In this document: one piece after another, positions 36,584 through 53,966 of the stretch
How positions within the stretch are numbered: position 1 is the first letter of the stretch
How the letters are laid out: every line of letters starts with the position of its first letter
Source: Deltaproteobacteria bacterium
GTDB lineage: Bacteria; SAR324; XYD2-FULL-50-16
Length of the DNA: 55,580 bases
NCBI GenBank assembly: GCA_029881655.1
Contig: JAOUME010000002.1
Span: 1-55,580 of the forward strand
Direction of reading: 5' to 3'
Program-made: the position numbers and the translations under genes
The notes under the pieces: generated by a model
What the model saw: only the letters and a program-made list of their open reading frames with translations
What the model was told of the DNA's origin: nothing
Databases searched by the model: none

Positions 36584-38386
36584 ATGAACCGATATTTCAA
36601 ACATCAATGGATTTTTATCCTGATTGTTCTTTCATTGGGCGTCATTGCCCAGAACCTTTATGGTTTCGACAAGGAAGCCTTGGATAAACTTCTTAAGACG
36701 AGAACCTGTGAGGGGTGTAATCTTGAGGGCGCGAAATTAAAGGATCAGGATCTCACGGGAGCCAATCTAAAGGGAGCCAATCTAAACAAGGCCAATCTCA
36801 TGGGTTCTAACCTTCAGGACGCAGACCTAAATGGAGCCAGCTTCAATCAGGCGTTTTTTGAAAACGCGATTTGGATCAACGGAGAGATATGCAAAAAGGG
36901 ATCTTTTGGAAAATGCATGAATGAAACGCTTGCGAATTTCGTCAAGACCAAAAACTGCGCGAGATGCAATTTGTCATTTTCAGGACTACGTGACGCTTAC
37001 CTAAGGGGAGCCTACTTACCCGGGGCTAAATTGATCGGGGCTGATTTAAGCAATGCTGTGCTGGTCGATAGTGATCTGACGGATGTTGACATGAGTGGAG
37101 CCAATTTATCCAACGCCAATTTAAGAGGTTCCAAGATTCAGGGGGTTCAGTTTCAAAACGCGAATTTTTCCGGCGCGATTTGGATTACGGGTGATATATG
37201 CAAAGAAAATTCGATCGGGATGTGCCTGACGAGTCAATGGGATCATTTTTTAGAGAACAAAAATTGTCTCAAGTGCAGTTTAACCCTGATTCGACAGAAA
37301 AATCTTAATTTAGAAAACGCAAAACTTCTCGAATCAGACTTAAGAAACAGCAATTTTTCCGATTCCAATTTTTCCAATACTCAGTTGGATCGGTCCAATT
37401 TCAGCAACTCTATCTTGTCAAAGAGCAATTTTACCAATAGCAGCCTTAAAAATACCATCCTGCAAAAAACGAATTTGGATAATTCCAATTTTACTCTGGC
37501 GGATTTATCGGGAGCCGATTTAAGCGGTTCGGAATTAAAAAAAGTCAGGTTTGACAGAACCAAGCTTGAAGGAGCCCGGCTTATGGCGGCGAATCTTTCA
37601 AACTCTAGCTTTATCGAAGTCGATTTCAAGGATGTTGACCTAAGGGATACCAATTTAGAACAGGTCGAATTTGAAAAAGTGGATTTTTCAAATGTACAGT
37701 TGGCGGGCGCAAACTGGATTAACGGATTGAGCTGTCTTGAGGGATCTGTTGGATTTTGCGTAACCAAGAACACCCAAAAGGCTATGACAGAAAAGAAGTG
37801 CGAGGGATGCAGTATCCCCTACGGCTTCTTTTTTAAAAGGGATTTAAATCATGTCAATTTAAAAGGGGCTAATCTTTTCAGGTCGAATTTTATGTCTACG
37901 GATCTCACACATGCCCAAATTGAAAAGGCCAATTTGACTCAATCAAGTTTTTTGAACGCGGATTTATCGTTTGTCGATATGACAAATGCCAACTTTACCG
38001 ATAGTATCTGGGTGGATGGGGAGCCCTGCTTAAAAGGCTCTATTGGCCGATGTATCACCGCGCCGCTCGTTAAACTTCTTGATAGCAAAGCCTGTAAGGA
38101 TTGCTCCTTGGTTTTTGCCAACCTGCGAAAAACCAAGCTATCCTGGTTTAATTTCCAAAACGCCAAACTAAAGGGTACAAACTTCACAGAAGCCAATCTT
38201 GCGGGAGCTTTTTTTGAAAACGCGGATCTCACCAACGCCAATTTCACCAAGGCTAATCTGGTCAGTAGCGAGTTTATCGGGGCAAAACTGGATGGGGCCG
38301 ATTTCACCGGCGCTGACCTTAGCGGAGCTACCTGGAGCGATGGTAATGTATGCAGGATTCCTTCAATAGGAAAGTGCGAGTTATAG
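36584..38386 (+). CDS. secreted pentapeptide-repeat protein built from five Cys4-bracketed modules
   Basis: A signal-like N-terminus is followed by long A(D/N)LxG-type pentapeptide runs. These are interrupted five times by K-x-C-x-x-C-(N/S)-(L/I) and W-x-x-G-x-x-C-x(3,4)-S-x-G-x-C. The protein has 20 Cys in total. Confidence 0.85.
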   Translation: MNRYFKHQWIFILIVLSLGVIAQNLYGFDKEALDKLLKTRTCEGCNLEGAKLKDQDLTGANLKGANLNKANLMGSNLQDADLNGASFNQAFFENAIWINGEICKKGSFGKCMNETLANFVKTKNCARCNLSFSGLRDAYLRGAYLPGAKLIGADLSNAVLVDSDLTDVDMSGANLSNANLRGSKIQGVQFQNANFSGAIWITGDICKENSIGMCLTSQWDHFLENKNCLKCSLTLIRQKNLNLENAKLLESDLRNSNFSDSNFSNTQLDRSNFSNSILSKSNFTNSSLKNTILQKTNLDNSNFTLADLSGADLSGSELKKVRFDRTKLEGARLMAANLSNSSFIEVDFKDVDLRDTNLEQVEFEKVDFSNVQLAGANWINGLSCLEGSVGFCVTKNTQKAMTEKKCEGCSIPYGFFFKRDLNHVNLKGANLFRSNFMSTDLTHAQIEKANLTQSSFLNADLSFVDMTNANFTDSIWVDGEPCLKGSIGRCITAPLVKLLDSKACKDCSLVFANLRKTKLSWFNFQNAKLKGTNFTEANLAGAFFENADLTNANFTKANLVSSEFIGAKLDGADFTGADLSGATWSDGNVCRIPSIGKCEL

Positions 38387-41928: not shown

Positions 41929-42164
41929 TTTTTCTGAATTAAAATAATCTTATATCAATCGATTCTTATTTGATTAATTGATTTCTCCTGACGCATTATT
42001 GTCGATGAGGGTTCATTTCGTCAAATAGAACAAAAACCTTTATCCGCGTAACAATTTGAGTTGAACAGTGCAGGATATTTGTATATTCTAATTTATATAA
42101 AAGGCGATTAATTTTTGAATTGTCTATGTTGTTTAAATCAATAGTCATCATAACAAGAGAGAAT

Positions 42165-43364
42165 ATGGGAAAAGTATTAATCTATACCAAAGGGTATTGT
42201 TCTTATTGCGTTGCCGCAAAAAATTTATTCGATAAAAAAAAAGTACCCTACGAGGAGATTCGCATTGACGAGCATCCCGAGCAAAAAGAAACCATGGTCG
42301 AGAAATCAAGAGGCCGAAAAACGGTGCCACAGATTTTTATTAATGATCAGCATATAGGTGGATGTGATGATCTATTCGAATTGGAAAATCAGGGCAAGCT
42401 AAACGCCCTTTTAGAAACTGAGGAGGCCGAGGCCAAGATCCAACACCGCAGGGTCATCATCTTGGGAACTGGTCCTGCAGGCTATACGGCCGCAATTTAT
42501 ACGGCCAGAGCAAATCTTAATCCTTTGATTTTTTCGGGTCCGCAAAAGGGGGGGCAGTTGACGACCACGACTGAAGTGGAGAATTTTCCCGGTTTTGAAA
42601 ACGGTATCGATGGCAATGAACTGATGAACAATATGGAAAAACAAGCCAAACGATTTGACACGGAAATTGTTTTTGGTGAAATCACCAAGGTTGATCTTTC
42701 CAAAAAGCCCTTTCTTCTTTATCAGAACAACGAGGTTTTCTCCTGCGACAGTCTGATTATAGCGACTGGCGCGACCGCCAAATATCTGGGTCTTGAAAGT
42801 GAGGATCGTTTTAAAAACCGCGGCGTGTCGGCTTGCGCGACTTGCGATGGCTTTTTTTATAAAGGCCAAAAGGTGGCTGTGGTCGGTGGTGGGGACACCG
42901 CCTTGGAGGAGGCTGCTTATTTGACCAATTTTTGCGAAAGGGTGTTTTTGATTCACCGCAGGGACGAGCTCAGGGGCAGCAAAGCGATGCAGGATCGGGT
43001 TTTGGCCAACGAGAAAATTGAGATTGTCTGGGATTCGGTGATTGAAGAGGTGCTTGGGGATGATCAGCAGGGCATGACCGATCTCACGGTTAAAAATGTC
43101 AAGACAGGCCAAATCAAACCACTGGGCGTGAAAGGGCTTTTCGTCGCCATCGGGCACAAACCCAACACCGATCTCTTCAAAGGGGTTCTGGATATGGATG
43201 CCAGCGGATATCTCCTGCCGAGTCCAGGAAGCTGCAAGATGAATATTGATGGCGTTTTCGCCTGTGGAGATGTCATGGATAGCCATTATCGTCAAGCTAT
43301 TACAGCCGCAGGGATGGGTTGTATGGCAGCGATCGATACTGAGCGTTGGCTTGCCGGGCAATAA
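42165..43364 (+). CDS. trxB: glutaredoxin-thioredoxin reductase fusion protein
   Basis: The N-terminal Grx has CSYC, TVPQIFI and GGCDD. A low-Mr TrxR follows with GTGPAGYTAA, the redox CATC and the NADPH motif HRRDELR. I place the start at ATG 42165; the ORF track begins at TTG 42120. Confidence 0.85.
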   Translation: MGKVLIYTKGYCSYCVAAKNLFDKKKVPYEEIRIDEHPEQKETMVEKSRGRKTVPQIFINDQHIGGCDDLFELENQGKLNALLETEEAEAKIQHRRVIILGTGPAGYTAAIYTARANLNPLIFSGPQKGGQLTTTTEVENFPGFENGIDGNELMNNMEKQAKRFDTEIVFGEITKVDLSKKPFLLYQNNEVFSCDSLIIATGATAKYLGLESEDRFKNRGVSACATCDGFFYKGQKVAVVGGGDTALEEAAYLTNFCERVFLIHRRDELRGSKAMQDRVLANEKIEIVWDSVIEEVLGDDQQGMTDLTVKNVKTGQIKPLGVKGLFVAIGHKPNTDLFKGVLDMDASGYLLPSPGSCKMNIDGVFACGDVMDSHYRQAITAAGMGCMAAIDTERWLAGQ

Positions 43365-43660: not shown

Positions 43661-44080
43661 ATGTCCGTCAAACTATTTGATAAAAATCTGGCTCTTCTGG
43701 AAAAGGCCATGCAGTTGCAAACCAGAAGAAACACCATGATCGCCTCGAACATTGCCAACCGTGAGACACCCGGCTACAGGGCGCAGGATCTGGTTTTTGA
43801 AAAGGAATTGATGAGAGCTCATAACAGCGACAGGCCGGGACCTTTAAATATTAATGATCCCAGGCATTTTGACGGAATCAAACGAGAGCCGATTGAGTTG
43901 GTCAAGGGAGAACAGATCAACAGCTTTAACCCTGATCCAAGAATGGACGGAAATACGGTCAACCTGGATAAAGAAATGACGAAACTCGCAGAAAATCAAA
44001 TGATGTATCAGGCCGCGACTAGAGCGGTTAACTGGAGACTCCGGATGCTTAAATCCGCTATCACTGAAGGAGGTCGATAA
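43661..44080 (+). CDS. flgB: flagellar basal-body rod protein FlgB
   Basis: SNIANRETPGY is present. Length is 139 aa. Confidence 0.9.
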   Translation: MSVKLFDKNLALLEKAMQLQTRRNTMIASNIANRETPGYRAQDLVFEKELMRAHNSDRPGPLNINDPRHFDGIKREPIELVKGEQINSFNPDPRMDGNTVNLDKEMTKLAENQMMYQAATRAVNWRLRMLKSAITEGGR

Positions 44081-44520
44081 TGACGATGTTTGATTCCATG
44101 AATGTCAGTTCATCGGGTCTCTCGGCGCAAAGACTCCGAATGAAGGTTATTACCAGTAATATCGCCAATGTCAATACGACCAGGACTCCAGGCGGAGGAC
44201 CCTATCGCAGGAAAGATACCATTTTCGCGGCCATGCCCTCCAACCAGAGTTTTCTGGAGCAATTGAAAAACCAGGAACAGGATCAAGGAATCAGAGAGGT
44301 CAAGGTCGTGGGAGTCGTCGAGGACTCAAGGCCGCCGAAAATGAAATATGATCCCTCTCATCCGGATGCCAACGAAGAGGGGTACGTGGAACTTCCCAAC
44401 ATCGATATCGTGGAGGAAGTTACGAACATGATGATTGCAAAACGGTCTTTCGAAGCGAATATCGCGGCCATCAATGCTACCAAACAAATGATCATCAAAA
44501 CTTTGGAAATCGGTAAATAA
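44080..44520 (+). CDS. flgC: flagellar basal-body rod protein FlgC
   Basis: SNIANVNTTRTPGG is present, with a C-terminal rod motif. The TAATG overlap links it to flgB. Confidence 0.9.
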   Translation: MTMFDSMNVSSSGLSAQRLRMKVITSNIANVNTTRTPGGGPYRRKDTIFAAMPSNQSFLEQLKNQEQDQGIREVKVVGVVEDSRPPKMKYDPSHPDANEEGYVELPNIDIVEEVTNMMIAKRSFEANIAAINATKQMIIKTLEIGK

Positions 44521-44544
44521 ATAGATTCATAACTAGGGTTTAAA

Positions 44545-44886
44545 ATGTCGGAAATCAACAAAATCAACACCCAAATAATTGAAATCAAACAAAAACAAGT
44601 CAAAGGAGACAAGGAAACTCAAGCTCCAGCGAGAGGTTTCGAGGATCAATTGCTAAAAACGGTTCAAAAACTGGAAACCATCGGAGAAGAAATCGACGGG
44701 TTGCTTGAAAGCCAAAATGGGCAGACTCCAGGAAAAGTGACAAGCGAGGTTAGCAATGTCGCGAACTACATCAAGAGCATGGAAGGGTTGGTGGAAAATC
44801 TTTCCGGCAAATCGACATCCAAGGTCAAATCGGCAAAATTTGTCGCGGATCAATACAATAAAATGAACCCAAAAAAAGAATCCTGA
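44545..44886 (+). CDS. hypothetical protein embedded between flgC and fliE
   Basis: The 113-aa hydrophilic, helical-looking ORF has tight spacing to both neighbours. I recognised no family. Confidence 0.5.
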   Translation: MSEINKINTQIIEIKQKQVKGDKETQAPARGFEDQLLKTVQKLETIGEEIDGLLESQNGQTPGKVTSEVSNVANYIKSMEGLVENLSGKSTSKVKSAKFVADQYNKMNPKKES

Positions 44887-44922
44887 TCACAACAACCAAA
44901 ATTATATCACGGATAAAATAAG

Positions 44923-45222
44923 ATGATTAAATCGATAAATAACAACCCGCTGATCTTAAAACAAAGCCCAACTCTTTCTAAAAGCGAATCCAAATCCTCC
45001 ACCCAGCAAATCGCGGCCAGCTTCGAAAAGGTATTCGATGAAGTCAACCAATCCCAGCTTCAAGCCGAATCAAAAATCAACGAGATGGTGGCCGGGAAAA
45101 GCAAGGACATCCCAGGTACGATTATGGCAATGGAAAAAGCGGATGTTTCTATGAAAATGATGATGGCGATAAGAAACAAGGTCGTCAGCACTTATGAGGA
45201 AATCATGCGCATGCAGGTTTAA
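44923..45222 (+). CDS. fliE: flagellar hook-basal body complex protein FliE
   Basis: The 99-aa protein has the C-terminus AIRNKVVSTYEEIMRMQV, typical of FliE. Confidence 0.9.
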   Translation: MIKSINNNPLILKQSPTLSKSESKSSTQQIAASFEKVFDEVNQSQLQAESKINEMVAGKSKDIPGTIMAMEKADVSMKMMMAIRNKVVSTYEEIMRMQV

Positions 45223-45302
45223 AGCAAAACTATGGGTTGGTTCGAATCAAAACCGTTTTTCATTTTCAAATAACTTAAAAAGCCACCAAAAAGGATGTAA
45301 CC

Positions 45303-46937
45303 ATGGCAGAACAAACAGCGAACTTTGTAGCGGATTTTCAAACGCAATTTCAGAATTTTTTCCAGGGCTTATCCATCGGGAAAAAAATCTTTCTGTTTAC
45401 AAGTTTGGGGTCGATTCTTCTTGGGTTGGCAGCGTTTATCTTTTTTTCGCAACAAGTAACCTGGGCTCCTCTGGTCAATGGTCTCAATCAGGAAGACGCG
45501 TCCAAAGTCGTGCAGAAACTGGATGAATTGAACATCAAATACATTCTTCAGCCAGGTGGCGGCTCAATCATGGTGGCAGGTGAGGATGTTGACAGGGTCC
45601 GCCTGCAAATCGCTTCAACCGGAATTCAGATGGGCGGCCTGGTCGGTTATGAGATTTTCGATAAAAACAACCTGGGCGCAACCGAGTTTCAACAGAAAAT
45701 CCAGTATAAAAGAGCTTTGGAAGGGGAGTTGTCGAGGTTAATCACCAAGATCAAGCAGATCAACAAGGCTAAGGTATCCCTTGCGATACCAGAGAAATCA
45801 CTGTTTGTTGACGAGCAAAATAAGCCCACCGCATCAGTGGTTCTGGAGATTGCAGGAGGTCAAAGACTCTCCCAATCGGGGATCATGACCATATTGAATC
45901 TGGTATCAGGCGCGGTTGAGGGGATGAGCATTGATGGCGTTAAGATAGCCAATCAAAACGGCAAATTGCTCTCTAAAGGTTTAACCGACCCGGACGGATC
46001 GGATCTCAGGGATAAAAACCATCACTATCAGGTCACCGTTGAGAAAAGACTTGAAGAAAAACTAATCACCCAGTTGGAAAAAGTAACAGGAAAAGACCGG
46101 GTTGAGGTCCGGGTATCTTTAGCGTTGGATTTTGACTCCAGCGAGATCACCGAGGATCTGGTGGATCCCGACAGTTCGGCTGTTTTAAGCGAAGAAGCGC
46201 TCAACGAGAGCATGACCGGATCAAGGTCCATACCGGTCGGCGTTCCAGGTGTCACGTCCAATTCCCCTGAAGTCAGGGCAGGCGCCAGTGAAATCGCCAA
46301 CGTATCGGATTCCAATAAAAAAACCAAGAGAACCAACTATGTCAACAGCAAGAGCCATATCGTCCGTAAAAAATCCGCAGGAGCGATCAAAAGAATGAGC
46401 GTGGCGGTGCTTTTGGATGGAATCTATGAGTATGTTCGTGATGAAAGCGGTGAGATTACAGGAAAGGAGCCGGTTTATAATCCCTGGTCGCCCAAGGACT
46501 TGGAGATTATCGAACAAATCGCCAAGCAGACCGTGGGTCTTAACGAAAAAAGAGGCGATACCATAACGGTACAAAATATCCGTTTTACCAAGCCTTTGGT
46601 TGAACAGGAAAAGTTAAAACAACAAAACCGTGAAACCACTAGAAAATTTATTATCGATTTGGTACGTTATGTCTTAGTCGGAGCGATCATCGTGGTCTTA
46701 GTTTTCATGGTCATCAGACCGATGGTGATGAAATTGTCAGCCAAGCCGGAAGATCTGGATCTGTTGATGGGACTGCCAACCACGATCGGAGAACTCGAAG
46801 GCGAAGAACTCGAAATCCCGACGGAAAAGGAAACGGGGATACCGCCGCGAGACAAGATTATCGATATCGCGAGACAAGATCCGCTCAAGACCGCTTCTTT
46901 GGTGCGTACATGGTTGCGTGAGAAAAAAGGCCCTTAA
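45303..46937 (+). CDS. fliF: flagellar MS-ring protein FliF
   Basis: The 544-aa protein has N- and C-terminal TM segments flanking a large periplasmic region. Its position after fliE supports the call. Confidence 0.85.
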   Translation: MAEQTANFVADFQTQFQNFFQGLSIGKKIFLFTSLGSILLGLAAFIFFSQQVTWAPLVNGLNQEDASKVVQKLDELNIKYILQPGGGSIMVAGEDVDRVRLQIASTGIQMGGLVGYEIFDKNNLGATEFQQKIQYKRALEGELSRLITKIKQINKAKVSLAIPEKSLFVDEQNKPTASVVLEIAGGQRLSQSGIMTILNLVSGAVEGMSIDGVKIANQNGKLLSKGLTDPDGSDLRDKNHHYQVTVEKRLEEKLITQLEKVTGKDRVEVRVSLALDFDSSEITEDLVDPDSSAVLSEEALNESMTGSRSIPVGVPGVTSNSPEVRAGASEIANVSDSNKKTKRTNYVNSKSHIVRKKSAGAIKRMSVAVLLDGIYEYVRDESGEITGKEPVYNPWSPKDLEIIEQIAKQTVGLNEKRGDTITVQNIRFTKPLVEQEKLKQQNRETTRKFIIDLVRYVLVGAIIVVLVFMVIRPMVMKLSAKPEDLDLLMGLPTTIGELEGEELEIPTEKETGIPPRDKIIDIARQDPLKTASLVRTWLREKKGP

Positions 46938-46960
46938 GTCTAACCCTTTGTTAAAGGTCA

Positions 46961-47884
46961 ATGGAAACCTACAAACCGCCTGTTTTCGATAGAGATTCTG
47001 ATAATTCAGGGGAATCAGCCGACTTTAAGCCTTTCGATACAGGGGATGCTAGCGGCCAGGCCGAGATGTTCGAGGCGGATGTTCTCTCTGAAGACAAAAA
47101 AGCCAGACCCGCTAAAAAAGAGTTCGTCACCTTTACTTCCAAACAATTCAATGAGGAAGGGACTCTTTTAACCAACGTCGAGGAGTACACCAAAAAAATC
47201 CAGATTGAGGCGGAGAGCCATGTCCGCCTTGTCCGCAATGAAGTGGACCTGATAAAATCAGAAATCGAGTTGGAACTCGCTAACGCCATCATCAAAAGAA
47301 GAGCTGCCGAAGAGGAAGCCCAAAAAATCGTTCAGGAAGCTGAAAACTCAAGGGAAGAAGTCATCAAAGCCGGTACGGAAAAAGGGTTCAAGGCTGGTTT
47401 CGAGGATGGCTTAAAACAGTTTAAGCAACAAAACGAACAAAACACCCAAGAGATCCTGAATCTTTTAAACGATATGAAAAAGCTGAGGCAAACCCTGCTT
47501 CAAAAACACGAACAAAACTTCGTCAACCTAAGTACTCTCATCGCTAAAAAAATCGTTCATAAGCACCTTGCCACCAATAAGGCCGCCATATTGAACATGT
47601 TGAAAAAAAATATCAGCCGGCTTGATGGAATGGGTCTCGTCACGATTTCTCTTAATCCAGACGAATATAATTTTATCGCACAGTATCAAAGCGAACTATC
47701 TACTTTTTTAGGGGAAGATCAGGTTATCAAGCTTAAAATCAATCCTGAGGTACAGTCTGCCGCGCCCCTGATCGAGACGGACTTCACCGTCATCGACCTG
47801 GATATCAAAAAACAGTTTAAGGAGGTTGATAAACTCTTTGATACTCTGGTTGAAGACCGAAAAGGGCTTTTTAAACTTTCTTAG
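46961..47884 (+). CDS. fliH: flagellar export regulator FliH
   Basis: A charged coiled-coil N-half is followed by GFKAGFEDGLKQ and a C-terminal domain (ISLNPDEY ... IETDFTVIDLDI). It lies immediately upstream of fliI. Confidence 0.7.
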   Translation: METYKPPVFDRDSDNSGESADFKPFDTGDASGQAEMFEADVLSEDKKARPAKKEFVTFTSKQFNEEGTLLTNVEEYTKKIQIEAESHVRLVRNEVDLIKSEIELELANAIIKRRAAEEEAQKIVQEAENSREEVIKAGTEKGFKAGFEDGLKQFKQQNEQNTQEILNLLNDMKKLRQTLLQKHEQNFVNLSTLIAKKIVHKHLATNKAAILNMLKKNISRLDGMGLVTISLNPDEYNFIAQYQSELSTFLGEDQVIKLKINPEVQSAAPLIETDFTVIDLDIKKQFKEVDKLFDTLVEDRKGLFKLS

Positions 47885-47935
47885 CTATAAACCGAAGCAG
47901 TAATACATTCCTCGCGACAAACGATAAAGGTAATC

Positions 47936-49264
47936 TTGTTCGATATAAAAGCCTATTTTGACGCAGTCGAGAATCAAAAATCAGCTCCGCTTCATGGGAA
48001 AGTGGAAGAGGTTATCGGTTTTTTGATCAAGGCTCATAATCCAGGACTTAATATCGGCAGCAGTTGTGAGATACTCAACCCCGAGACTGGTGAGACTCAG
48101 TTGGGCGAGGTCGTAGGTTTTAAGGAGGGCAAGATTCTGGTCATGCCCATCGGTGATATAAGGGGCATCGGACCACATAACCATATCATCCCTTCGCGGG
48201 ACCGGTCTTTTGTTTACGTCGGCGATGAATTGCTGGGAAGGTCCATTGACGGACTTGGAGAACCGATTGATGGACTGGGACCCCTTAACTGCGAAAAAAA
48301 AGTCAGGATGTACAAAGATCCCATCAATCCTCTCCATCGAAGAAGAATCGACAGCTCACTCGATGTCGGCATCAAGTCCATTAACGGGGTTTTAACCTGT
48401 GGGAAAGGCCAGAGACTCGCGATCCTGTCTGGCTCAGGTGTCGGAAAATCGGTCTTGCTGGGGATGATGGCCAGAAATACCACGGCTGACGTGAATGTGA
48501 TTGCTCTGGTCGGGGAAAGAGGACGTGAAGTCAAGGAATTCATCGAAAAGGATTTGGGTCCCGAGGGATTGAAACGCTCTGTAGTCGTAGTGGCAACCTC
48601 AGATCAATCACCCTTAGCCCGAATTCGAGCGGCCTACATCGCCACATCGGTAGCGGAATATTTCAGGGAAGAGGGTAAGGACGTTTTGTTGATGATGGAC
48701 AGCGTCACCCGTTTTGCGATGGCTCAAAGAGAAGTCGGGCTCGCGGCGGGAGAACCTCCCACGACCAAAGGTTATCCGCCGTCTGTTTTCTCACTGCTCC
48801 CCAAACTTCTTGAAAGAGCCGGTAATTCGAAATCCAAGGGCTCGATCACCAGTTTTTATTCGGTGCTGGTCGAGGGGGATGACCCCAACGACCCCATTGG
48901 AGATGCCGTGAGATCGATCGTTGATGGACACATATTGCTGGACCGTGAAATCGCCGCCATGGGACATTATCCTGCCATCGATGTTCTGCGCTCAAGAAGC
49001 AGGGTAATGGTGGATGTCGCACCAGAGACCCACCAACTCAACGCCAAAAGACTGATCCAGACCTATTCGATTTATAAGGAAGCTGAGGATTTAATTAATA
49101 TCGGTGCTTATGTTAAAGGATCAAATCCTAAAATTGATTATTCAATTAGAAAAATCAATGAGATAAATCGGTTTTTACAGCAGGCGATCAGTGAAAAATT
49201 CACGATGATTGAATGCGAAGCTGTGCTGGAACAAATATTTCAGGATTTTCCTAATGATTTTTAA
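47936..49264 (+). CDS. fliI: flagellum-specific ATPase FliI
   Basis: Walker A GSGVGKS and Walker B LLMMDSVTR are present. The 442-aa protein has a TTG start. Confidence 0.9.
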   Translation: MFDIKAYFDAVENQKSAPLHGKVEEVIGFLIKAHNPGLNIGSSCEILNPETGETQLGEVVGFKEGKILVMPIGDIRGIGPHNHIIPSRDRSFVYVGDELLGRSIDGLGEPIDGLGPLNCEKKVRMYKDPINPLHRRRIDSSLDVGIKSINGVLTCGKGQRLAILSGSGVGKSVLLGMMARNTTADVNVIALVGERGREVKEFIEKDLGPEGLKRSVVVVATSDQSPLARIRAAYIATSVAEYFREEGKDVLLMMDSVTRFAMAQREVGLAAGEPPTTKGYPPSVFSLLPKLLERAGNSKSKGSITSFYSVLVEGDDPNDPIGDAVRSIVDGHILLDREIAAMGHYPAIDVLRSRSRVMVDVAPETHQLNAKRLIQTYSIYKEAEDLINIGAYVKGSNPKIDYSIRKINEINRFLQQAISEKFTMIECEAVLEQIFQDFPNDF

Positions 49265-49272
49265 AGAGATTT

Positions 49273-49896
49273 ATGTCAAGAACATTAATATTGGTGGATA
49301 TCCAAAACGATTTTTGTCCCGAGGGAGCGCTAGCGGTTCCAAAGGGTAATGAGGTAATACCCGTTGCCAACCGTCTTTTGGAGACAAAAGGAGTATTTGA
49401 TCTAATCATCGCTACGCAGGACTGGCATCCGGCTGATCATCTCAGTTTCGCAAGCCAGCACGCGGGAAGTATCGGCGACGTGATCGAACTGGGAGGCTTC
49501 ACCCAAGTTTTGTGGCCGGATCATTGTGTCCAAAACACCATGGGAGCGGAATTAACGCCTGGTTTAAAAAAAGACAGGATAGACAGAATTATATACAAGG
49601 GTATCCATCGTGAAATTGACAGTTACAGCTGTTTTTTTGAAAACGACCATAAAACAGCGACAGGCCTTGAGGACTTTCTCCGGCTTAAAGGAGTTACGAC
49701 TGTTTTTATAATGGGCTTGGCTACCGATTACTGTGTCAAGTACTCTGTGCTGGATGCTTTAGAGTTGAACATGGAAACGGTCGTTATCCAGGATGGGTGC
49801 AGGGGGGTTGAATTGAATCCTGGAGATGTCAAACAGGCGGAAATGGAAATGAGGCAGAAGGGCGCCAGATTTTGTGGCAGCCATGAACTTATCTAG
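49273..49896 (+). CDS. pncA: nicotinamidase/pyrazinamidase
   Basis: It has an isochorismatase-like fold with LVDIQNDFCP and the catalytic Cys in ATDYCV. Confidence 0.85.
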   Translation: MSRTLILVDIQNDFCPEGALAVPKGNEVIPVANRLLETKGVFDLIIATQDWHPADHLSFASQHAGSIGDVIELGGFTQVLWPDHCVQNTMGAELTPGLKKDRIDRIIYKGIHREIDSYSCFFENDHKTATGLEDFLRLKGVTTVFIMGLATDYCVKYSVLDALELNMETVVIQDGCRGVELNPGDVKQAEMEMRQKGARFCGSHELI

Positions 49897-49951
49897 TAAG
49901 GGATCGTTTTTGGTCTAGGCGGATAATCTTTATGTTTCACAGATTTAATCT

Positions 49952-50929
49952 ATGAGTTCGATAAGACGCAAAAGAAGGAACAATCGGTTTTTATTTTTTT
50001 TCTTGGTGACGCTTCCCTTTTTAGTCATTATCTTCACTGTAGGCGGTTACCTGTTTCTAAATGTAAATGAAACATACCGAGCAAAGGGGTGCGAACCGCT
50101 TAAGAAGGATGTGATTCAACCGTTTGATTTCGAGGAGCAGCAGGACATCCGTTTTGCGGCGATTGGAGACGCTGGGACCGGTGACGAGGCTCAGAAAAGG
50201 ATTGCTCAATCCCTTGAGAAGGTCTGTCTCTTAAAAGGATGCAATTTCGTATTAATGTTAGGAGATAATTTTTATCCTGACGGTATCCATTCGGTTACAG
50301 ATGATCAGTTCAAGGAAAAATTCGAGGATATCTATAGAAATTTCAAGATCCCTTTTTTCGCGGTTTTAGGTAACCATGATGTTCATGGAGATCCAAATGC
50401 CCAACTGTACAGAAGCCTTAATAGCGAGGTTTGGCGCATGCCGAATTTCTATTACCTTTTTAATGCCGGCCCCGCCAGTTTTTTAGGATTGAACTCGAAC
50501 TGTTCCCCCTTTAACTGGAAAGAGCAACAAGCAAAACTGGCCAAGGAAAAAACACCTTGGAAATTCGTTTTTGGACATCATACTATCTACAGTAGCGGCA
50601 CACACGGCAACGCGAATGTTTTATTAAGGGGACTTTGGCAGTACTATTTCGAAGAGGATGCCGATTTTTATATATCGGGTCATGACCATCAATTGGAACA
50701 TCTTCAGGTAAAGGGACAAAAGACACATTTTATCGTAAGCGGCGCTGGCGGGAAAAATTACAGTTCGCTTTCTGAAAGAAAAAAAACCAACAAACATAAC
50801 AGCAACTCTAAATTTATCTATCAAAATAATGGATTTGTGCTATTTGAGGTTGCGAAAAAACAGGTTCTGGTTGATTTCTTCGATGGAGACGGAAAGAGCC
50901 TGTATCAGTTTAAACAAATCAAGAAATAA
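49952..50929 (+). CDS. membrane-anchored metallophosphoesterase (purple-acid-phosphatase-like)
   Basis: It has an N-terminal TM segment and the motifs GDAGTGD, GDNFY, GNHD and GHDH. Confidence 0.8.
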   Translation: MSSIRRKRRNNRFLFFFLVTLPFLVIIFTVGGYLFLNVNETYRAKGCEPLKKDVIQPFDFEEQQDIRFAAIGDAGTGDEAQKRIAQSLEKVCLLKGCNFVLMLGDNFYPDGIHSVTDDQFKEKFEDIYRNFKIPFFAVLGNHDVHGDPNAQLYRSLNSEVWRMPNFYYLFNAGPASFLGLNSNCSPFNWKEQQAKLAKEKTPWKFVFGHHTIYSSGTHGNANVLLRGLWQYYFEEDADFYISGHDHQLEHLQVKGQKTHFIVSGAGGKNYSSLSERKKTNKHNSNSKFIYQNNGFVLFEVAKKQVLVDFFDGDGKSLYQFKQIKK

Positions 50930-50949
50930 TATAATATCAACTTATAAAG

Positions 50950-51957
50950 ATGTTCCGTAAGTTATCTAGAAGGGAATTTCTGAAGGGAATTGCTGTTGGG
51001 AGTTTAACCGCGCCCATGCTACTGAGTGGTTTTTCAGAAATTCTGCTGGCCCAATCGGAAGTTGAAAGGCAAAATATTATCTGGTTGCATGCCCAGTCCT
51101 CACGGGTTCATCAGTCGATGATCTTTAGTTTGCCCGATTTGCTGGATCTTTTCCAGAAGCGCTTTAATGTATTGAATTACGAACACTTAAAAAATCTGGC
51201 CAAGGAAGGTGACACGGATAAATTTGAGAAAACGCCCATTTTGATATTGGAGGGATATTTTCCCCATGAAAATGTCAAACCTCAAGATAACCTTTTGACC
51301 CAATTGATAAACGTCTCAAAGACCGTGATCATGTTGGGTAGTGAGGCTTCCTACAGCGCAAATGCCCCAGAGGGATTTTCTGACTTGGAAAAAGAATCTC
51401 TCACCCACACCACAACCCCTTTCATCCGACTACCTGGAATGCCCGTTCATTCTAGGCATTTGCTCGGGACGTTAAATCATCTACTTTTATATGGTTTCCC
51501 GGAACTGGATGAATACCGCAGACCGACCATGTTTTATAGCGAGAAAATTTGTGTAAGATGCGAGTACAACAGCGATTTTAATGCGGGAAACTTCGTCAGT
51601 CATTTTGGTGAAAAGGAAGGTTGCCTGTATCTTTTGGGTTGCAAGGGAAAGGTGACTTACAACTCTTGTCCGGTTGAGAAGTCCAATGGTACCATGAGTT
51701 GGTGCGTCAGTGCGGGGTCACCCTGTATTGGCTGTTCCGAGCCCATTTATCCCGATCATTCCGGCCTGGGATTATTTGGGCAGATAAGCAAGGATAAAGC
51801 GGGGGTTAATTCCGCTTTGATCCGCCATCTCAATGAGATCGCCTTAGGCGCGGTTGCCTTGACTGTCGGTGGCTTGACTTTCCATACTGCCAGCAAAAGA
51901 ATGTCTCTCCCATCCAGTATCGAAACTTCATTTACATACAGGGAAGACAAGGAATGA
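50950..51957 (+). CDS. [NiFe]-hydrogenase small-subunit homologue lacking proximal-cluster cysteines
   Basis: It keeps the Tat motif SRREFLK and a C-terminal TM anchor. It has eight Cys: KICVRC, EGCLYLLGCKG, YNSCP and SWCVSAGSPCIGC. The usual N-domain Cys sites instead read IIWLHAQSSRVHQS, IMLGSEASYS and RLPGMPV. Confidence 0.8.
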   Translation: MFRKLSRREFLKGIAVGSLTAPMLLSGFSEILLAQSEVERQNIIWLHAQSSRVHQSMIFSLPDLLDLFQKRFNVLNYEHLKNLAKEGDTDKFEKTPILILEGYFPHENVKPQDNLLTQLINVSKTVIMLGSEASYSANAPEGFSDLEKESLTHTTTPFIRLPGMPVHSRHLLGTLNHLLLYGFPELDEYRRPTMFYSEKICVRCEYNSDFNAGNFVSHFGEKEGCLYLLGCKGKVTYNSCPVEKSNGTMSWCVSAGSPCIGCSEPIYPDHSGLGLFGQISKDKAGVNSALIRHLNEIALGAVALTVGGLTFHTASKRMSLPSSIETSFTYREDKE

Positions 51958-53420
51958 GCCAAACCTTAATTCAACAGTTTCAAAGAACCGAGGGTATTAT
52001 TGGTTTGACTCTGTTTGAGACCAAGGACCGAAGGCAGGTTGTTTTCAATAGCGGTCAAAGCACCCATCTTGAAGAGAAGCTCAAGGGCCGATATCCTTTG
52101 GAACCTATCCACCTGACTCAATTGCTTTCCTCTAAAAACGGGATTTTTCACGCTATGGCTTCAGTATTGGCGATTGAGGATTATTTCAAGCTCAAACCTA
52201 CCTTAATCGCCGGCCATATCCGCCAGTTAATGATGCAGATCGCGACCATTCATTCTCATATCCATCATTTTTACTGGGAGTCTCTGCCCAATTATCTTCA
52301 TCGAAAACATCTCGAAAAAGTTGAGAATAAAGACCTGGTTTATTTCCCGCGGTTGGTTGATAGGGATAAGGATTCGGGGGATCTTTCCATAAAAACCGGA
52401 GGTTCAATCCTCAAGCACGTTGCCATGGCAGCTGAAACGCTGAATGTTCTACAAAAAACCCTTGCGATTCTGGGTGGGAAGTATCCAATCGTCATGAATC
52501 TGATTCCAGGAGGGGTGACGAACTTTAAGAACGAAAAAGACAAGCTGATGATCATCTTAAACAAGCTGGAAAGGCTAAAACCTTTTATTGAGGAAGTCTG
52601 GCCCGCGGATGTCAAGCAGTTCACACAGGATATTCCAGAGACGACCAAAGTCATCTTTCCAAACTTAAATCTGATCAGTTTTGGTTCCGTGCCTGTGGAA
52701 AAAATAGCTGATCAATCAACAGGGCTTTATATATCAGGTGTCCTGATCGATGGTAAATTGGAGCCCTTAAACGATTTTAAAATAACCGAATCTTTTGACA
52801 ATACCTTTTATGTGCCGATCGACGAACAAGGGGAGCTGAACGCGGATCTGTATGATGTAAACAAGAAAGGAGCCTATACTTGGATTAAAAGCGCGCGCTA
52901 CGAAGGAGAAAGCATGCTGACGGGTCCTTTAGCCAGAATGATGATCACACATTTCGGTGGAGGAAACCTGGAAATCAGTGATAGTATCGGCCACATGATC
53001 AACAATCTCGGATTGACTTCCGACTCTTATAACTGTGTAGCCAGCCGGATGTTCGCTGAAGTTTTTGAAGCCAGATATCACTTGAAATCCATTTTCCATA
53101 GCCTTTTGGCGATCAACCAGCAGTCGGATCTTAATTTAAAACGGCCATTTGATTTCTCAGACGGGGGTACAGGAACCGGCAGGGTAGAAGCACCAGGCGG
53201 CTCTTTGATGCATCAGACCTACATTAAGGGTGATCAAATCATGCAATACCGGATTATCTCTCCCATGAACTGGAATTTTTCAACCAGGGATAAAAACAAT
53301 CGCTCAGGAATCGTTGAACGGGAAATGAACCACTTTTTTCAGGAAAACGAGCTTTCCGAATTCCAGGCGAACAGAGTTTTCACATCCTATTACCCACAGG
53401 CTCTTGATGGAACCCAGTAG
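51954..53420 (+). CDS. [NiFe]-hydrogenase large-subunit homologue lacking all Ni-Fe cysteine ligands
   Basis: Family landmarks are kept: RTEG, VLAIED, IHSHIHHFY, LGGKYP..IPGGV, GPLARM, EAPGGSLMH and ISPMNWNFSTRD. RxCGxCxxxH is replaced by LLSSKNGIFH, and DPCxxCxxH by YPQALDGTQ-stop. The whole protein has only one Cys. An ATGA overlap links it to the upstream gene. Confidence 0.8.
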   Translation: MSQTLIQQFQRTEGIIGLTLFETKDRRQVVFNSGQSTHLEEKLKGRYPLEPIHLTQLLSSKNGIFHAMASVLAIEDYFKLKPTLIAGHIRQLMMQIATIHSHIHHFYWESLPNYLHRKHLEKVENKDLVYFPRLVDRDKDSGDLSIKTGGSILKHVAMAAETLNVLQKTLAILGGKYPIVMNLIPGGVTNFKNEKDKLMIILNKLERLKPFIEEVWPADVKQFTQDIPETTKVIFPNLNLISFGSVPVEKIADQSTGLYISGVLIDGKLEPLNDFKITESFDNTFYVPIDEQGELNADLYDVNKKGAYTWIKSARYEGESMLTGPLARMMITHFGGGNLEISDSIGHMINNLGLTSDSYNCVASRMFAEVFEARYHLKSIFHSLLAINQQSDLNLKRPFDFSDGGTGTGRVEAPGGSLMHQTYIKGDQIMQYRIISPMNWNFSTRDKNNRSGIVEREMNHFFQENELSEFQANRVFTSYYPQALDGTQ

Positions 53421-53429
53421 CATAAAACC

Positions 53430-53966
53430 ATGGGAATTTATAATCTAAGCAACAAATATTACAATTCAATTCAAAAGAGGCTAAGGGTTTGGGGATTACC
53501 CTTTCTCCTATTAGTCGCCTACATTAGTGGTTTCGAGTTGGTCAGAGACAATCAGTTTCAAATATTAACCAGGATTCAACTTAGTTTTTTACATAGTCTC
53601 GGCGGTATTCTTGTTTCTCTTTTGTGGATAAGTTTGACCTATGATCTTGTTTTGAAAATTATTAGAAAGGAAAAAAAGATAGTGATGCAAAATGGAACGA
53701 GAAAGCTTGTTTTGATTCCTAGTTCGATTTATACCAAAAGAGACTGGGTCGATTTTTTGTTTTATTTTGTGCTTTTTATTCTTTGTCTGGTAGGTGTTCT
53801 GCTTTATTTAAGTCGGTGGGGAGGTATCGTTTTTTTTGATTCTCACGTCATTGCAATTTTACATCAGTTTATCGGCTGGACATTTATATCTTTGATTCTG
53901 GTGAAGTATTATTTATCCTTCACCTTGTGGTTTAAGAATTTGGTTCGGTATTTAAGAGAGTATTGA
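53430..53966 (+). CDS. small b-type-cytochrome-like membrane protein (Ni/Fe-hydrogenase cytochrome b family-like)
   Basis: The 178-aa protein has four hydrophobic segments. Histidines are kept in FLHSLGG and AILHQFIGW. The usual RxWHW reads RVWGL, and the second TM4 His position reads K. Confidence 0.55.
   Translation: MGIYNLSNKYYNSIQKRLRVWGLPFLLLVAYISGFELVRDNQFQILTRIQLSFLHSLGGILVSLLWISLTYDLVLKIIRKEKKIVMQNGTRKLVLIPSSIYTKRDWVDFLFYFVLFILCLVGVLLYLSRWGGIVFFDSHVIAILHQFIGWTFISLILVKYYLSFTLWFKNLVRYLREY

What the first reader, a model, noticed from the sequence alone, without database searches (positions are those of the whole stretch)
51954..53420. Large-subunit homologue with one cysteine in 488 residues and no C-terminal maturation site
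Seen: the family landmarks are conserved:
- RTEG (for RIEGH);
- HAMASVLAIED;
- IHSHIHHFY;
- LGGKYPIVMNLIPGGV;
- LTGPLARM;
- VEAPGGSLMH;
- IISPMNWNFSTRD.
The N-terminal Ni-Fe motif R-x-C-G-x-C-x3-H reads L-L-S-S-K-N-G-I-F-H, with Ser59 and Asn62 at the Cys positions (nt 52128-52139). The C-terminal D-P-C-x-x-C-x-x-H reads Y-P-Q-A-L-D-G-T-Q followed by the stop. The Arg of EAPRG is Gly. The only Cys is in SYNCVAS.

Established: the four Cys ligate the Ni-Fe centre, and the C-terminal His and extension are needed for endopeptidase maturation. I recall the Arg being implicated in H2 activation.

Inference: the protein cannot assemble a canonical Ni-Fe site. Retention of the fold landmarks suggests selection for a structural, binding or different catalytic role.
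Basis: partly seen in the sequence, partly recalled or inferred. Interest (0 to 1): 0.8.

Follow-up and report, generated by a model that had tools for sequence, protein, structure and literature searches.

The report
Cysteine-free hydrogenase-derived membrane complex of SAR324
This gene encodes a well-conserved relative of the nickel-iron hydrogenase catalytic subunit that has lost every metal-binding cysteine. It sits in a three-gene operon found in SAR324-type bacteria, so it is almost certainly not a hydrogenase even though databases label it as one.

Summary
ORF 51954-53420 (488 aa, one Cys) is a clear [NiFe]-hydrogenase large-subunit homologue: Pfam E 2e-53, AF2 pLDDT 89, TM 0.83-0.86 to NiFeSe/NiFe enzymes. 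All four Ni-Fe cysteines, the canopy Arg and the C-terminal extension are missing.

It is not decay.
- About 119 full-length relatives form one monophyletic family of two clades. Every member that carries an organism name is a SAR324, Lambdaproteobacteria or Deltaproteobacteria MAG.
- dN/dS is about 0.05.
- The bridging Cys4 is Asp/Glu in 119/119 members.

The gene is the middle of a translationally coupled operon.
- The upstream Tat-signal small subunit has lost all four proximal-cluster ligands. It keeps eight invariant Cys for two [4Fe-4S] clusters.
- The downstream four-helix cytochrome b-like protein has only two invariant His, enough for one heme.

No hyp, endopeptidase or nickel-transport genes were found among the window ORFs scanned.

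Best reading: a hydrogenase-derived, periplasm-facing heme b plus two-cluster electron-transfer complex. Its large subunit is an H2-inactive scaffold whose empty site is plugged by a Lys61-Asp485 pair. I found no description of this family. It is a group-1 counterpart of the Ehr and complex-I type of cysteine loss.

The parts
50950..51957 (+). Small-subunit homologue (335 aa), Tat-exported, with a C-terminal membrane helix
   Evidence: PF14720 E 1.9e-23 and TIGR00391 E 5e-35. 43 PDB small subunits match. The gene sits in the same position in the 15 loci whose contig reaches that far; L011 is cut off upstream. Its stop codon overlaps the large-subunit ATG as ATGA.
50962..50982 (+). Twin-arginine signal motif S-R-R-E-F-L-K
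   Evidence: R7, R8 and F10 are invariant in the clade A family. TIGR01409 gives a weak hit.
51100..51441 (+). Former proximal [4Fe-4S] site: Cys17->S51, Cys20->H54, Cys112->E132, Cys148->M164
   Evidence: Alignments to true small subunits. None of the 4 ligands is present in 46/46 family members, against 42-43 of 43 true small subunits.
51550..51735 (+). Eight invariant Cys. C201/C204/C225/C231 form an all-Cys distal cluster in which C201 replaces the usual His. C240/C252/C259/C262 form a medial cluster with a fourth Cys at the Pro238 position.
   Evidence: Invariant columns in A2 and A8. Distal His->Cys in 46/46 members versus 0/43 true small subunits. Fourth medial Cys in 46/46 versus 8/43.
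51835..51903 (+). Predicted C-terminal membrane-anchor helix with His312
   Evidence: AF2 predicts a helix at 294-318. H312 is present in 42/42 clade A members but is variable in clade B.
51954..53420 (+). Cys-free [NiFe]-hydrogenase large-subunit homologue (488 aa)
   Evidence: AF2 pLDDT 89.1 and pTM 0.92. Foldseek TM 0.83-0.86 to NiFeSe and NiFe large subunits.
52119..52151 (+). Remnant of the L1 motif, Q-L-L-S59-S-K61-N62-G-I-F-H66, in place of Q-R-x-C-G-V-C-x-x-x-H
   Evidence: S59 is invariant in clade A. Position 61 is K/R in 38/58 clade A members and D/E in 56/61 clade B members. H66 is retained.
52473..52496 (+). G-G-K-Y-P-I179-V-M181 loop
   Evidence: The His of GGKxPH is replaced by V/I/M. 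M181 is a family-specific signature residue.
53187..53201 (+). E-A-P-G415-G in place of E-A-P-R-G (catalytic canopy Arg lost)
   Evidence: This position is G/S/A/T in all family members and Arg in 11/11 sampled true hydrogenases.
53385..53420 (+). Remnant of the L2 motif, S-Y-Y-P-Q482-A-L-D485-G-T-Q488-stop, in place of S-F-D-P-C-x-x-C-x-x-H(+extension)
   Evidence: D/E at Cys4 in 119/119 members. No member has any residue after the His position (119/119).
53430..53966 (+). Four-helix cytochrome b-like membrane subunit (178 aa) with invariant His55 (nt 53592-53594) and His145 (nt 53862-53864)
   Evidence: PF01292 is weak for the window protein (E 0.005), but 12/17 family members hit it, best E 1.3e-10. 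Only two His are invariant in both clades. The gene follows the large subunit in all 16 loci.

Best explanation
The gene is the middle of a three-gene operon: Tat small subunit, large subunit, cytochrome b-like anchor. The operon descends from a periplasmic, membrane-bound group-1 [NiFe]/[NiFeSe]-type uptake hydrogenase, but it no longer makes or uses H2.

Shown:
- The large subunit keeps the full hydrogenase fold but has none of the four Ni-Fe cysteines, no canopy Arg, no proximal-cluster-facing His and no C-terminal extension.
- The small subunit keeps its Tat signal and eight Cys for two [4Fe-4S] clusters but has lost the entire proximal cluster site.
- The anchor keeps two His.
- All three genes are under strong purifying selection and stay together across a family whose named members are all SAR324-type MAGs.

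Inferred:
- The complex folds in the cytoplasm. The signal-less large subunit is carried out by the small subunit's Tat signal, and the complex sits on the periplasmic face of the membrane.
- Its working redox part is a short wire: one periplasm-side heme b, then the all-Cys distal [4Fe-4S], then the medial [4Fe-4S]. The wire probably exchanges electrons with the quinone pool without crossing the membrane.
- The large subunit is a non-catalytic but indispensable scaffold. It buries and stabilises the small subunit.
- The cavity left by the Ni-Fe centre is closed by polar residues. In this protein that is a Lys61-Asp485 ion pair, with Ser59 and the retained His66.
- Without the proximal cluster, the old site lies roughly two cluster spacings from the medial cluster. 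That is too far for physiological electron transfer.

The periplasmic electron partner is unknown.
For: Homology and fold.

Missing ligands, in register:
- Alignments.
- Frequencies over 58 clade A and 61 clade B proteins: Cys4->D/E 119/119; Cys1->S 58/58 (A) and 37/61 (B); Arg->G/A/S; His of GGKxPH->V/I/M; position 61 K/R in clade A versus D/E in clade B.
- Some members have no Cys at all.

Small subunit: 0/4 proximal ligands, distal His->Cys and a fourth medial Cys in 46/46 members. The Tat motif is invariant.

Cytochrome b: two invariant His in both clades, each near the predicted periplasmic end of its helix. PF01292 is hit by 12/17 members.

Operon: ATGA overlap and a 9-nt gap. The gene order is the same in all 16 clade A loci, with L011 cut off before the small subunit, and in clade B loci L018 and L021-L024.

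Selection: dN/dS for LSU is 0.050, SSU 0.053, cyt b 0.087, CoaE 0.069, VanY 0.099.

Single origin: clades A+B are monophyletic in 200/200 NJ bootstraps.

Maturation genes: no hyp, endopeptidase or Ni-transport genes among the window ORFs scanned.

Annotation threshold: NCBIfam hydrogenase equivalog models score 192 bits against a cut-off of 600.
Against: - The large subunit is as tightly constrained as the small subunit and has kept its full length across about 28% identity divergence. That is more than a passive scaffold might need.
- D485, M181 and Q167 are family-specific invariant residues that could mark a new site.
- A wire that ends at a buried medial cluster has no obvious substrate.
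- No coordinates were available, so the Lys61-Asp485 contact and the distances are inferred from homology with solved hydrogenases, not measured.
- The small-subunit model is poor in the cluster domain (pLDDT below 50).
- Heme binding and quinone reactivity of the anchor are not shown. It has no sequence match to any solved structure.
- The rest of the genome could not be searched for hyp genes.
Confidence: 0.55

Rival explanations
1. The large subunit has gained a new active or ligand-binding site. The former Ni-Fe pocket now binds a hard cation or a small substrate through O/N ligands: Asp485, Ser59, His66 and Glu13, plus Asp61 and Ser482 in clade B. The complex would then be a new enzyme rather than a wire with a dead subunit.
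For: Asp/Glu at Cys4 in 119/119 members across two clades. Clade B combines two acidic residues, two Ser and His at the site, a typical constellation for Mg/Mn/Fe(II). Family-specific invariant residues Q167, M181 and D485. LSU dN/dS is as low as that of the cluster-bearing subunit. The full-length fold is retained.
Against: In clade A, which includes this window, the second acidic residue is Lys/Arg in 38/58 members. That fits charge neutralisation without a metal. Cys2 and Cys3 positions vary freely in clade A. Loss of the proximal cluster removes the electron path to the pocket, so any chemistry there would have to be non-redox.
Confidence: 0.2
2. The complex has been recruited for a structural or sensory role in the cell envelope, possibly linked to the flagellum, rather than for electron transfer.
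For: The operon lies next to flagellar genes in both clades, but next to different ones. In clade A it follows fliE-fliF-fliH-fliI. In clade B it sits beside fliR-flhB-flhA or fliM.
Against: Eight Fe-S cysteines and two heme-type His are invariant, which argues that redox cofactors matter. L018 shows no flagellar neighbour in the part of the contig recovered. The adjacency could be inherited from a single ancestral position. No known precedent.
Confidence: 0.07
3. It is still an H2-converting enzyme that uses unconventional ligands or cysteines contributed from elsewhere.
For: Overall fold, Glu13, His66, His420 and many second-shell residues are retained.
Against: One Cys in this protein and none in several relatives. 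Canopy Arg and proximal cluster are absent. No maturation genes nearby. No known Ni-Fe(CO)(CN)2 site is built without thiolates (my own knowledge).
Confidence: 0.02
4. It is a decaying remnant (pseudogene) of a lost hydrogenase.
For: Loss of all catalytic residues.
Against: Intact ORFs of constant length in about 119 relatives. dN/dS is 0.05-0.07, lower than the neighbouring CoaE and VanY. Synteny and translational coupling are conserved.
Confidence: 0.01

Closest known systems
Periplasmic group 1 [NiFeSe]/[NiFe] hydrogenases (Desulfomicrobium baculatum 1cc1/4kl8, Desulfovibrio vulgaris Hildenborough 2wpn, D. gigas 1frv)
   Same: These are the best sequence and structure matches: E 5e-30, TM 0.83-0.86. 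The large-subunit length is similar at about 490 aa. The small subunit carries a Tat signal. The fourth Cys at the medial cluster, seen in the closest true small subunit P0126 and in 8/43 true small subunits, is to my knowledge characteristic of NiFeSe enzymes.
   Different: No Ni-Fe ligands, no Sec, no canopy Arg and no proximal cluster. The distal His ligand is Cys. The operon carries a cytochrome b-like anchor and a small-subunit membrane helix. To my knowledge, soluble NiFeSe enzymes lack both.
Membrane-bound uptake hydrogenases with cytochrome b (E. coli Hyd-1 HyaABC 4gd3, Wolinella HydABC, Cupriavidus HoxKGZ)
   Same: Same three-gene architecture and order. Tat small subunit with a C-terminal anchor helix. 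PF01292-type b-cytochrome.
   Different: Those enzymes have four heme-ligand His (two hemes, transmembrane electron transfer; my own knowledge) and a full Ni-Fe plus three-cluster wire. Here there are only two His and two clusters.
Ehr complexes and complex I NuoD/NuoB (hydrogenase-related proteins that do not metabolise H2)
   Same: Hydrogenase large-subunit homologues that have lost the L1/L2 cysteines yet are conserved and functional. HydDB lists Nuo and Ehr as such. An example is Cenrod_1908.
   Different: Those derive from group 4 energy-converting hydrogenases. They are cytoplasm-facing with antiporter-like subunits, and they keep the proximal cluster (N2) next to a new quinone site. This family derives from group 1, is Tat-exported, and has lost exactly the proximal cluster while keeping the other two.
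Hydrogenases without a C-terminal extension (regulatory HoxC and the nearest true relatives P0061, P0062, P0196, P0204)
   Same: The large subunit ends at the residue equivalent to the cleavage-site His.
   Different: Those retain all four cysteines.

Membership tests
[NiFe]-hydrogenase large subunit (functional enzyme) | PF00374 fold / homology | tested here: met
   Pfam E 2.1e-53. Foldseek TM 0.83-0.86.
[NiFe]-hydrogenase large subunit (functional enzyme) | N-terminal R-x-C-G-x-C-x3-H with two Ni-Fe cysteines | tested here: not met
   Reads L-L-S-S-K-N-G-I-F-H in register. 0/119 family members have both Cys.
[NiFe]-hydrogenase large subunit (functional enzyme) | C-terminal D-P-C-x-x-C-x-x-H with two Ni-Fe cysteines | tested here: not met
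   Reads Y-P-Q-A-L-D-G-T-Q-stop. Cys4 is D/E in 119/119 members.
[NiFe]-hydrogenase large subunit (functional enzyme) | Conserved Arg of E-A-P-R-G above the active site | tested here: not met
   Gly415. The family has G/A/S/T at this position, against Arg in 11/11 true hydrogenases.
[NiFe]-hydrogenase large subunit (functional enzyme) | Curated equivalog score (NCBIfam NF033181, cut-off 600 bits) | tested here: not met
   191.6 bits.
[NiFe]-hydrogenase large subunit (functional enzyme) | Hyp maturation genes and endopeptidase in the genome | tested here: inconclusive
   None among the ORFs scanned in the 55.6-kb window or beside the operon in related loci. The rest of the genome could not be searched.
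[NiFe]-hydrogenase large subunit (functional enzyme) | Bound Ni and H2 activity | not testable with these tools
   Needs purified protein.
Group 1 hydrogenase small subunit | Tat signal and NiFe_hyd_SSU_C domain | tested here: met
   SRREFLK motif. PF14720 E 1.9e-23.
Group 1 hydrogenase small subunit | Four ligands of the proximal Fe-S cluster | tested here: not met
   S51, H54, E132, M164. 0/4 ligands in 46/46 members. PF01058 scores below its cut-off, 19.7 versus 27 bits.
Group 1 hydrogenase small subunit | Medial and distal cluster ligands | tested here: met
   Eight invariant Cys. The distal His is replaced by Cys.
Hydrogenase-type cytochrome b (PF01292, HyaC/HydC) | Four-helix b-cytochrome with four His for two hemes | tested here: inconclusive
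   The Pfam hit is below its cut-off for the window protein (17 versus 30.1 bits), but 12/17 relatives match, best E 1.3e-10. Only two His are invariant.
Ehr / complex I-type hydrogenase-related proteins | Large-subunit homologue without L1/L2 cysteines, conserved | tested here: met
Ehr / complex I-type hydrogenase-related proteins | Descent from group 4, partner NuoB-like subunit keeping the proximal cluster, antiporter-like membrane subunits | tested here: not met
   The nearest relatives are group 1 periplasmic enzymes. The proximal cluster is lost. The partner is a cytochrome b-like protein, and no antiporter-like genes are adjacent.

The most novel reading that the evidence does not exclude
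A lineage of SAR324-type bacteria converted a respiratory uptake hydrogenase into a different periplasmic enzyme. In this reading the Cys-free large subunit is not inert. It carries a new non-thiolate site built around the universally conserved Asp at the old bridging-Cys position, with Ser, His and Glu, and a second Asp in clade B. Alternatively, a new cofactor occupies the vacated proximal-cluster pocket of the flavodoxin-like small-subunit domain and re-links the site to the two remaining [4Fe-4S] clusters and the heme b. That would be a new respiratory activity in one of the most abundant deep-ocean bacterial groups (abundance is my own knowledge).
Probability: 0.2. Interest if true: 0.85.

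Novelty: new variant of a known kind. Interest (0 to 1): 0.62.

Why it matters
- **Annotation.** These proteins are deposited as "nickel-dependent hydrogenase large subunit" or "Ni,Fe-hydrogenase I large subunit". Gene-presence surveys could therefore credit SAR324 bacteria with H2 oxidation that this locus cannot perform.
- **Evolution.** This is a second, independent route by which a [NiFe] hydrogenase became something else. Complex I and Ehr kept the proximal cluster and lost the rest of the wire. This family did the opposite, and it did so in a Tat-exported, periplasm-facing enzyme.
- **Protein chemistry.** It is a natural experiment in how a protein fold built around a buried bimetallic cofactor is kept stable without it. 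The pattern is Asp at the bridging-Cys position in every member, paired with Lys in one clade and Asp in the other.
- **Physiology.** If the complex has an activity, it is an unknown membrane redox function conserved across a major uncultured lineage.

Tried and rejected
**Literature.** Seven full-text searches looked for a group-1-like cysteine-less large subunit, SAR324 hydrogenase-like proteins or degenerate hydrogenases.
- They found only group-4-type cases: Ehr and Cenrod_1908.
- The SAR324 survey reports "Group 1d hydrogenases" in aquifer genomes via HydDB. I could not tell whether that refers to this locus.

**Cytochrome b.** A profile of the anchor subunit against PDB sequences gave no meaningful hit.

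**Small-subunit model.** The AF2 model was poor in the cluster domain (pLDDT below 50). I used it only to show that the N-terminal domain and the anchor helix are predicted.

**Coordinates.** Model coordinates are not exposed. The cavity, channels and Lys61-Asp485 distance could not be measured.

**Nearest true hydrogenases.** Cluster look-up gave no informative names.

**Other scans.** Promoter/terminator and tRNA scans found nothing above background.

**Ideas rejected.**
- Selenocysteine recoding: the Cys3 codon is Gln, not TGA, and the ORF is uninterrupted.
- Out-of-register cysteines: there is one Cys here and none in some relatives.
- FMN binding in the small-subunit flavodoxin-like domain: the clade A loop QSSGIH looks vaguely like a phosphate loop, but clade B has nothing similar.
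Full report
**1. The observation**

The ORF at 51954-53420 (+) translates to 488 residues with one cysteine, C361 in SYNCVAS.

It is a true homologue of the [NiFe]-hydrogenase large subunit.
- Pfam PF00374 scores E 2.1e-53.
- Fifty-six solved large subunits match, with E down to 4.6e-30. The best are the NiFeSe enzymes of Desulfomicrobium baculatum and Desulfovibrio vulgaris Hildenborough. E. coli Hyd-1 and Hyd-2, D. gigas, Allochromatium and Cupriavidus HoxG also match.
- An AlphaFold2 model built on 32 relatives has mean pLDDT 89 and pTM 0.92. It superposes on those structures with TM 0.83-0.86.

The motif register is not in doubt.
- HMMER places QRICGVCPTAH of 4kl8 over QLLSSKNGIFH.
- MAFFT places SFDPCxxCxxH of true hydrogenases over SYYPQALDGTQ-stop.
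- So Cys1->Ser59, Cys2->Asn62, Cys3->Gln482, Cys4->Asp485 and the terminal His->Gln488.
- The Arg of EAPRG is Gly415.
- NCBIfam's hydrogenase equivalog model scores 192 bits against a cut-off of 600.

**2. It is a conserved family, not decay**

A search of 5.8 billion proteins found about 60 relatives of about 487 aa at 40-52% identity. After those, identity drops to about 26% for true hydrogenases. The relatives that carry a name are SAR324 cluster or Candidatus Lambdaproteobacteria MAGs.

A profile search of 1.84 billion cluster representatives, followed by a motif scan, revealed a second Cys-free clade. I call the window's clade A and the second clade B. Clade B comes from higher-GC organisms that are again named SAR324, Lambdaproteobacteria or Deltaproteobacteria.

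In a neighbour-joining tree with 84 true hydrogenases, A+B form one clade in 200/200 bootstraps. The two clades share only about 28% identity.

Residue frequencies across 58 clade A and 61 clade B full-length proteins:

| Position | Clade A | Clade B | True hydrogenases |
|---|---|---|---|
| Cys4 | D/E, all | D/E, all (119/119 overall) | Cys |
| Cys1 | Ser 58/58 | Ser 37/61 | Cys |
| Residue between the two L1 cysteines | Lys/Arg 38/58 | Asp/Glu 56/61 | Val/Ile |
| Canopy Arg | small residue, always | small residue, always | Arg |
| His of GGKxPH | Val/Ile/Met | Val/Ile/Met | His |
| Residues after the His position | none | none | 0-19 |

Several members contain no cysteine at all.

Structural residues shared with real hydrogenases are kept: G14, H66, R90, H102, Y107, P178, G186/G187, R315, G416, H420, W440, N441, E455 and S478.

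Nei-Gojobori dN/dS for the closest genome pair (L013/L014) shows strong purifying selection:

| Gene | dN/dS |
|---|---|
| FliI | 0.025 |
| Large subunit | 0.050 |
| Small subunit | 0.053 |
| CoaE | 0.069 |
| Anchor (cytochrome b-like) | 0.087 |
| VanY | 0.099 |

A second pair gives 0.069 for the large subunit. Synonymous sites are close to saturation, so the ratios are approximate. The ranking is clear.

**3.

The gene is the middle of an operon. The upstream ORF (50950-51957) ends in an ATGA overlap with it, and the downstream ORF (53430-53966) starts 9 nt after its stop.

*Small subunit.* The upstream protein is a hydrogenase small-subunit homologue (PF14720 E 1.9e-23).
- It has a canonical twin-arginine motif SRREFLK, with RR and F invariant.
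- It has a predicted C-terminal membrane helix.
- All four ligands of the proximal [4Fe-4S] cluster are gone: S51, H54, E132 and M164. This holds in 46/46 family members, against 42-43 of 43 true small subunits.
- Eight cysteines are invariant. Four form the distal site, where the usual His ligand has become Cys in 46/46 members versus 0/43 true small subunits. Four form the medial site, including a Cys at the Pro238 position in 46/46 versus 8/43.
- To my knowledge, that fourth Cys makes the medial cluster a [4Fe-4S], as in NiFeSe enzymes.

*Membrane anchor.* The downstream protein is a four-helix membrane protein.
- It matches PF01292 weakly itself (E 0.005), but 12/17 relatives match it, best E 1.3e-10.
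- Only two His are invariant in both clades.
- From the charge distribution of the loops, both lie near the periplasmic ends of helices 2 and 4. To my knowledge, that is the position of the periplasm-side heme ligands in FdnI and HydC.

*Synteny.* The three genes keep this order in all 16 clade A genome loci; in L011 the contig ends before the small subunit. They also keep it in clade B loci L018 and L021-L024.

*Maturation genes.* None of the window ORFs scanned is a hyp gene, an endopeptidase or a nickel transporter. The region is ordinary chromosome: PolA, RpoN, Mur ligase, malic enzyme, flagellar genes, CoaE and VanY.

**4. How it most likely works**

*Shown.*
- There is no Ni-Fe site, no canopy Arg and no proximal cluster.
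- Two Cys4 cluster sites, a Tat signal and two heme-type His are retained.
- The genes are translationally coupled.
- Selection is strong.

*From established knowledge.*
- Hydrogenase large subunits have no signal peptide and are exported bound to the small subunit by the Tat system.
- In hydrogenases, electrons pass from Ni-Fe through the proximal, medial and distal clusters in steps of roughly 11-13 Å.
- Physiological tunnelling fails beyond about 14 Å.

*Inference.*
- The complex is exported as a folded dimer and sits on the periplasmic face, held by the small-subunit helix and the anchor.
- The redox-active part is one heme b plus distal and medial [4Fe-4S] clusters. It probably exchanges electrons with quinone near the periplasmic side, so no charge crosses the membrane.
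- The old active site is electronically isolated because the proximal relay is missing.
- The large subunit is therefore best read as a catalytically dead but structurally indispensable partner.

The substitution pattern suggests how the hole is filled. Asp at the bridging-Cys position is universal. In clade A, including this window (S59/K61/N62, Q482/D485), it faces a Lys or Arg, which would neutralise it without any metal. His66 is also retained. As I recall, that His hydrogen-bonds this cysteine in D. gigas.

Clade B has Asp/Glu instead of Lys, plus Ser at Cys3. That looks more like a hard-cation site.

*Weaknesses of this reading.*
- A wire ending at a buried cluster has no evident partner.
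- The large subunit is conserved as strongly as the cluster-bearing subunit.

For those reasons I give the alternative, a new non-thiolate site or a new cofactor in the vacated proximal pocket, a 0.2 probability.

**5. Comparison with what is known**

The complex resembles a group 1 membrane-bound uptake hydrogenase in architecture. In sequence it is closest to periplasmic NiFeSe-type enzymes. It fails the defining tests of a hydrogenase: both CxxC motifs, the Arg, the proximal cluster and the curated score.

It resembles Ehr and complex I NuoD/NuoB in being a conserved hydrogenase derivative without the cysteines. HydDB lists only Nuo, Ehr, NARF and HmdII as such non-H2 homologues. Those descend from group 4, face the cytoplasm and keep the proximal cluster. 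This family is the mirror image.

The nearest true hydrogenases retrieved also end at the His. The missing extension may therefore predate the loss of the cysteines.

Seven full-text searches found no description of this family. That is absence of evidence within the searchable library only.

**6. Verdict**

- This is a new variant of a known kind, a hydrogenase-derived non-hydrogenase.
- Practical consequence: it is annotated as a nickel-dependent hydrogenase in public records.
- Open question: its function.
- Interest: 0.62.

Noticed in passing
window 43661-49264: The flagellar cluster runs flgB, flgC, a 113-aa unknown ORF (44545-44886), fliE, fliF, fliH, fliI. No fliG lies between fliF (ends 46937) and fliH (starts 46961), where it usually sits. 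The 307-aa FliH has about 160 N-terminal residues without a Pfam match.
   Followed up: no
window 43661-53966; L021 1420-5430; L023 13326-14342: The hydrogenase-like operon lies within a few genes of flagellar genes in both clades, but next to different ones. In clade A they are fliE-fliF-fliH-fliI. In clade B they are fliR-flhB-flhA or fliM. This could be a remnant of one ancestral position or a functional link.
   Followed up: partly
window 49952-50929: A calcineurin-like metallophosphoesterase with an N-terminal hydrophobic segment sits directly upstream of the small-subunit gene. It is found in the same place in 6 of 16 related loci: L009, L010, L012, L013, L014 and L016. It evolves faster than the operon (dN/dS 0.14).
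   Followed up: partly
L021 10164-12026; L023 9839-11713; L024 5629-7503: In clade B loci the operon is followed by a long (620-aa) acyl-CoA dehydrogenase. It is preceded, on the opposite strand, by a LexA-like S24 peptidase gene.
   Followed up: no
proteins P0190, P0199, P0201, P0213, P0215, P0243: Other scattered large-subunit homologues outside the two clades also lack some or all Ni-Fe cysteines, for example TSRISGISSFSH ... SFDPNITAAVH. Most of them keep the His of GGKxPH (not P0201, PQ, or P0215, PF). Cysteine loss in this superfamily may have happened more than once.
   Followed up: no
protein P0074 (761 aa) and P0206 (776 aa): P0074 carries DUF4405 and cytochrome b (PF01292) domains fused to the PF00374 large-subunit domain. 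P0206 is similarly long and keeps all four cysteines, but its domains were not looked up.
   Followed up: no
window 42120-43364: One 414-aa ORF fuses an N-terminal glutaredoxin domain to a pyridine-nucleotide-disulphide oxidoreductase, resembling thioredoxin reductase.
   Followed up: no
window 36584-38386: A 600-aa protein made almost entirely of pentapeptide repeats: PF00805 E 8e-87 with 12 stretches.
   Followed up: no
PMC9031357, section 3.4.1: The SAR324 comparative-genomics paper reports "Group 1d hydrogenases" in aquifer (Lambdaproteobacteria-type) genomes on the basis of HydDB. It is worth checking whether any of those calls are this Cys-free family.
   Followed up: partly
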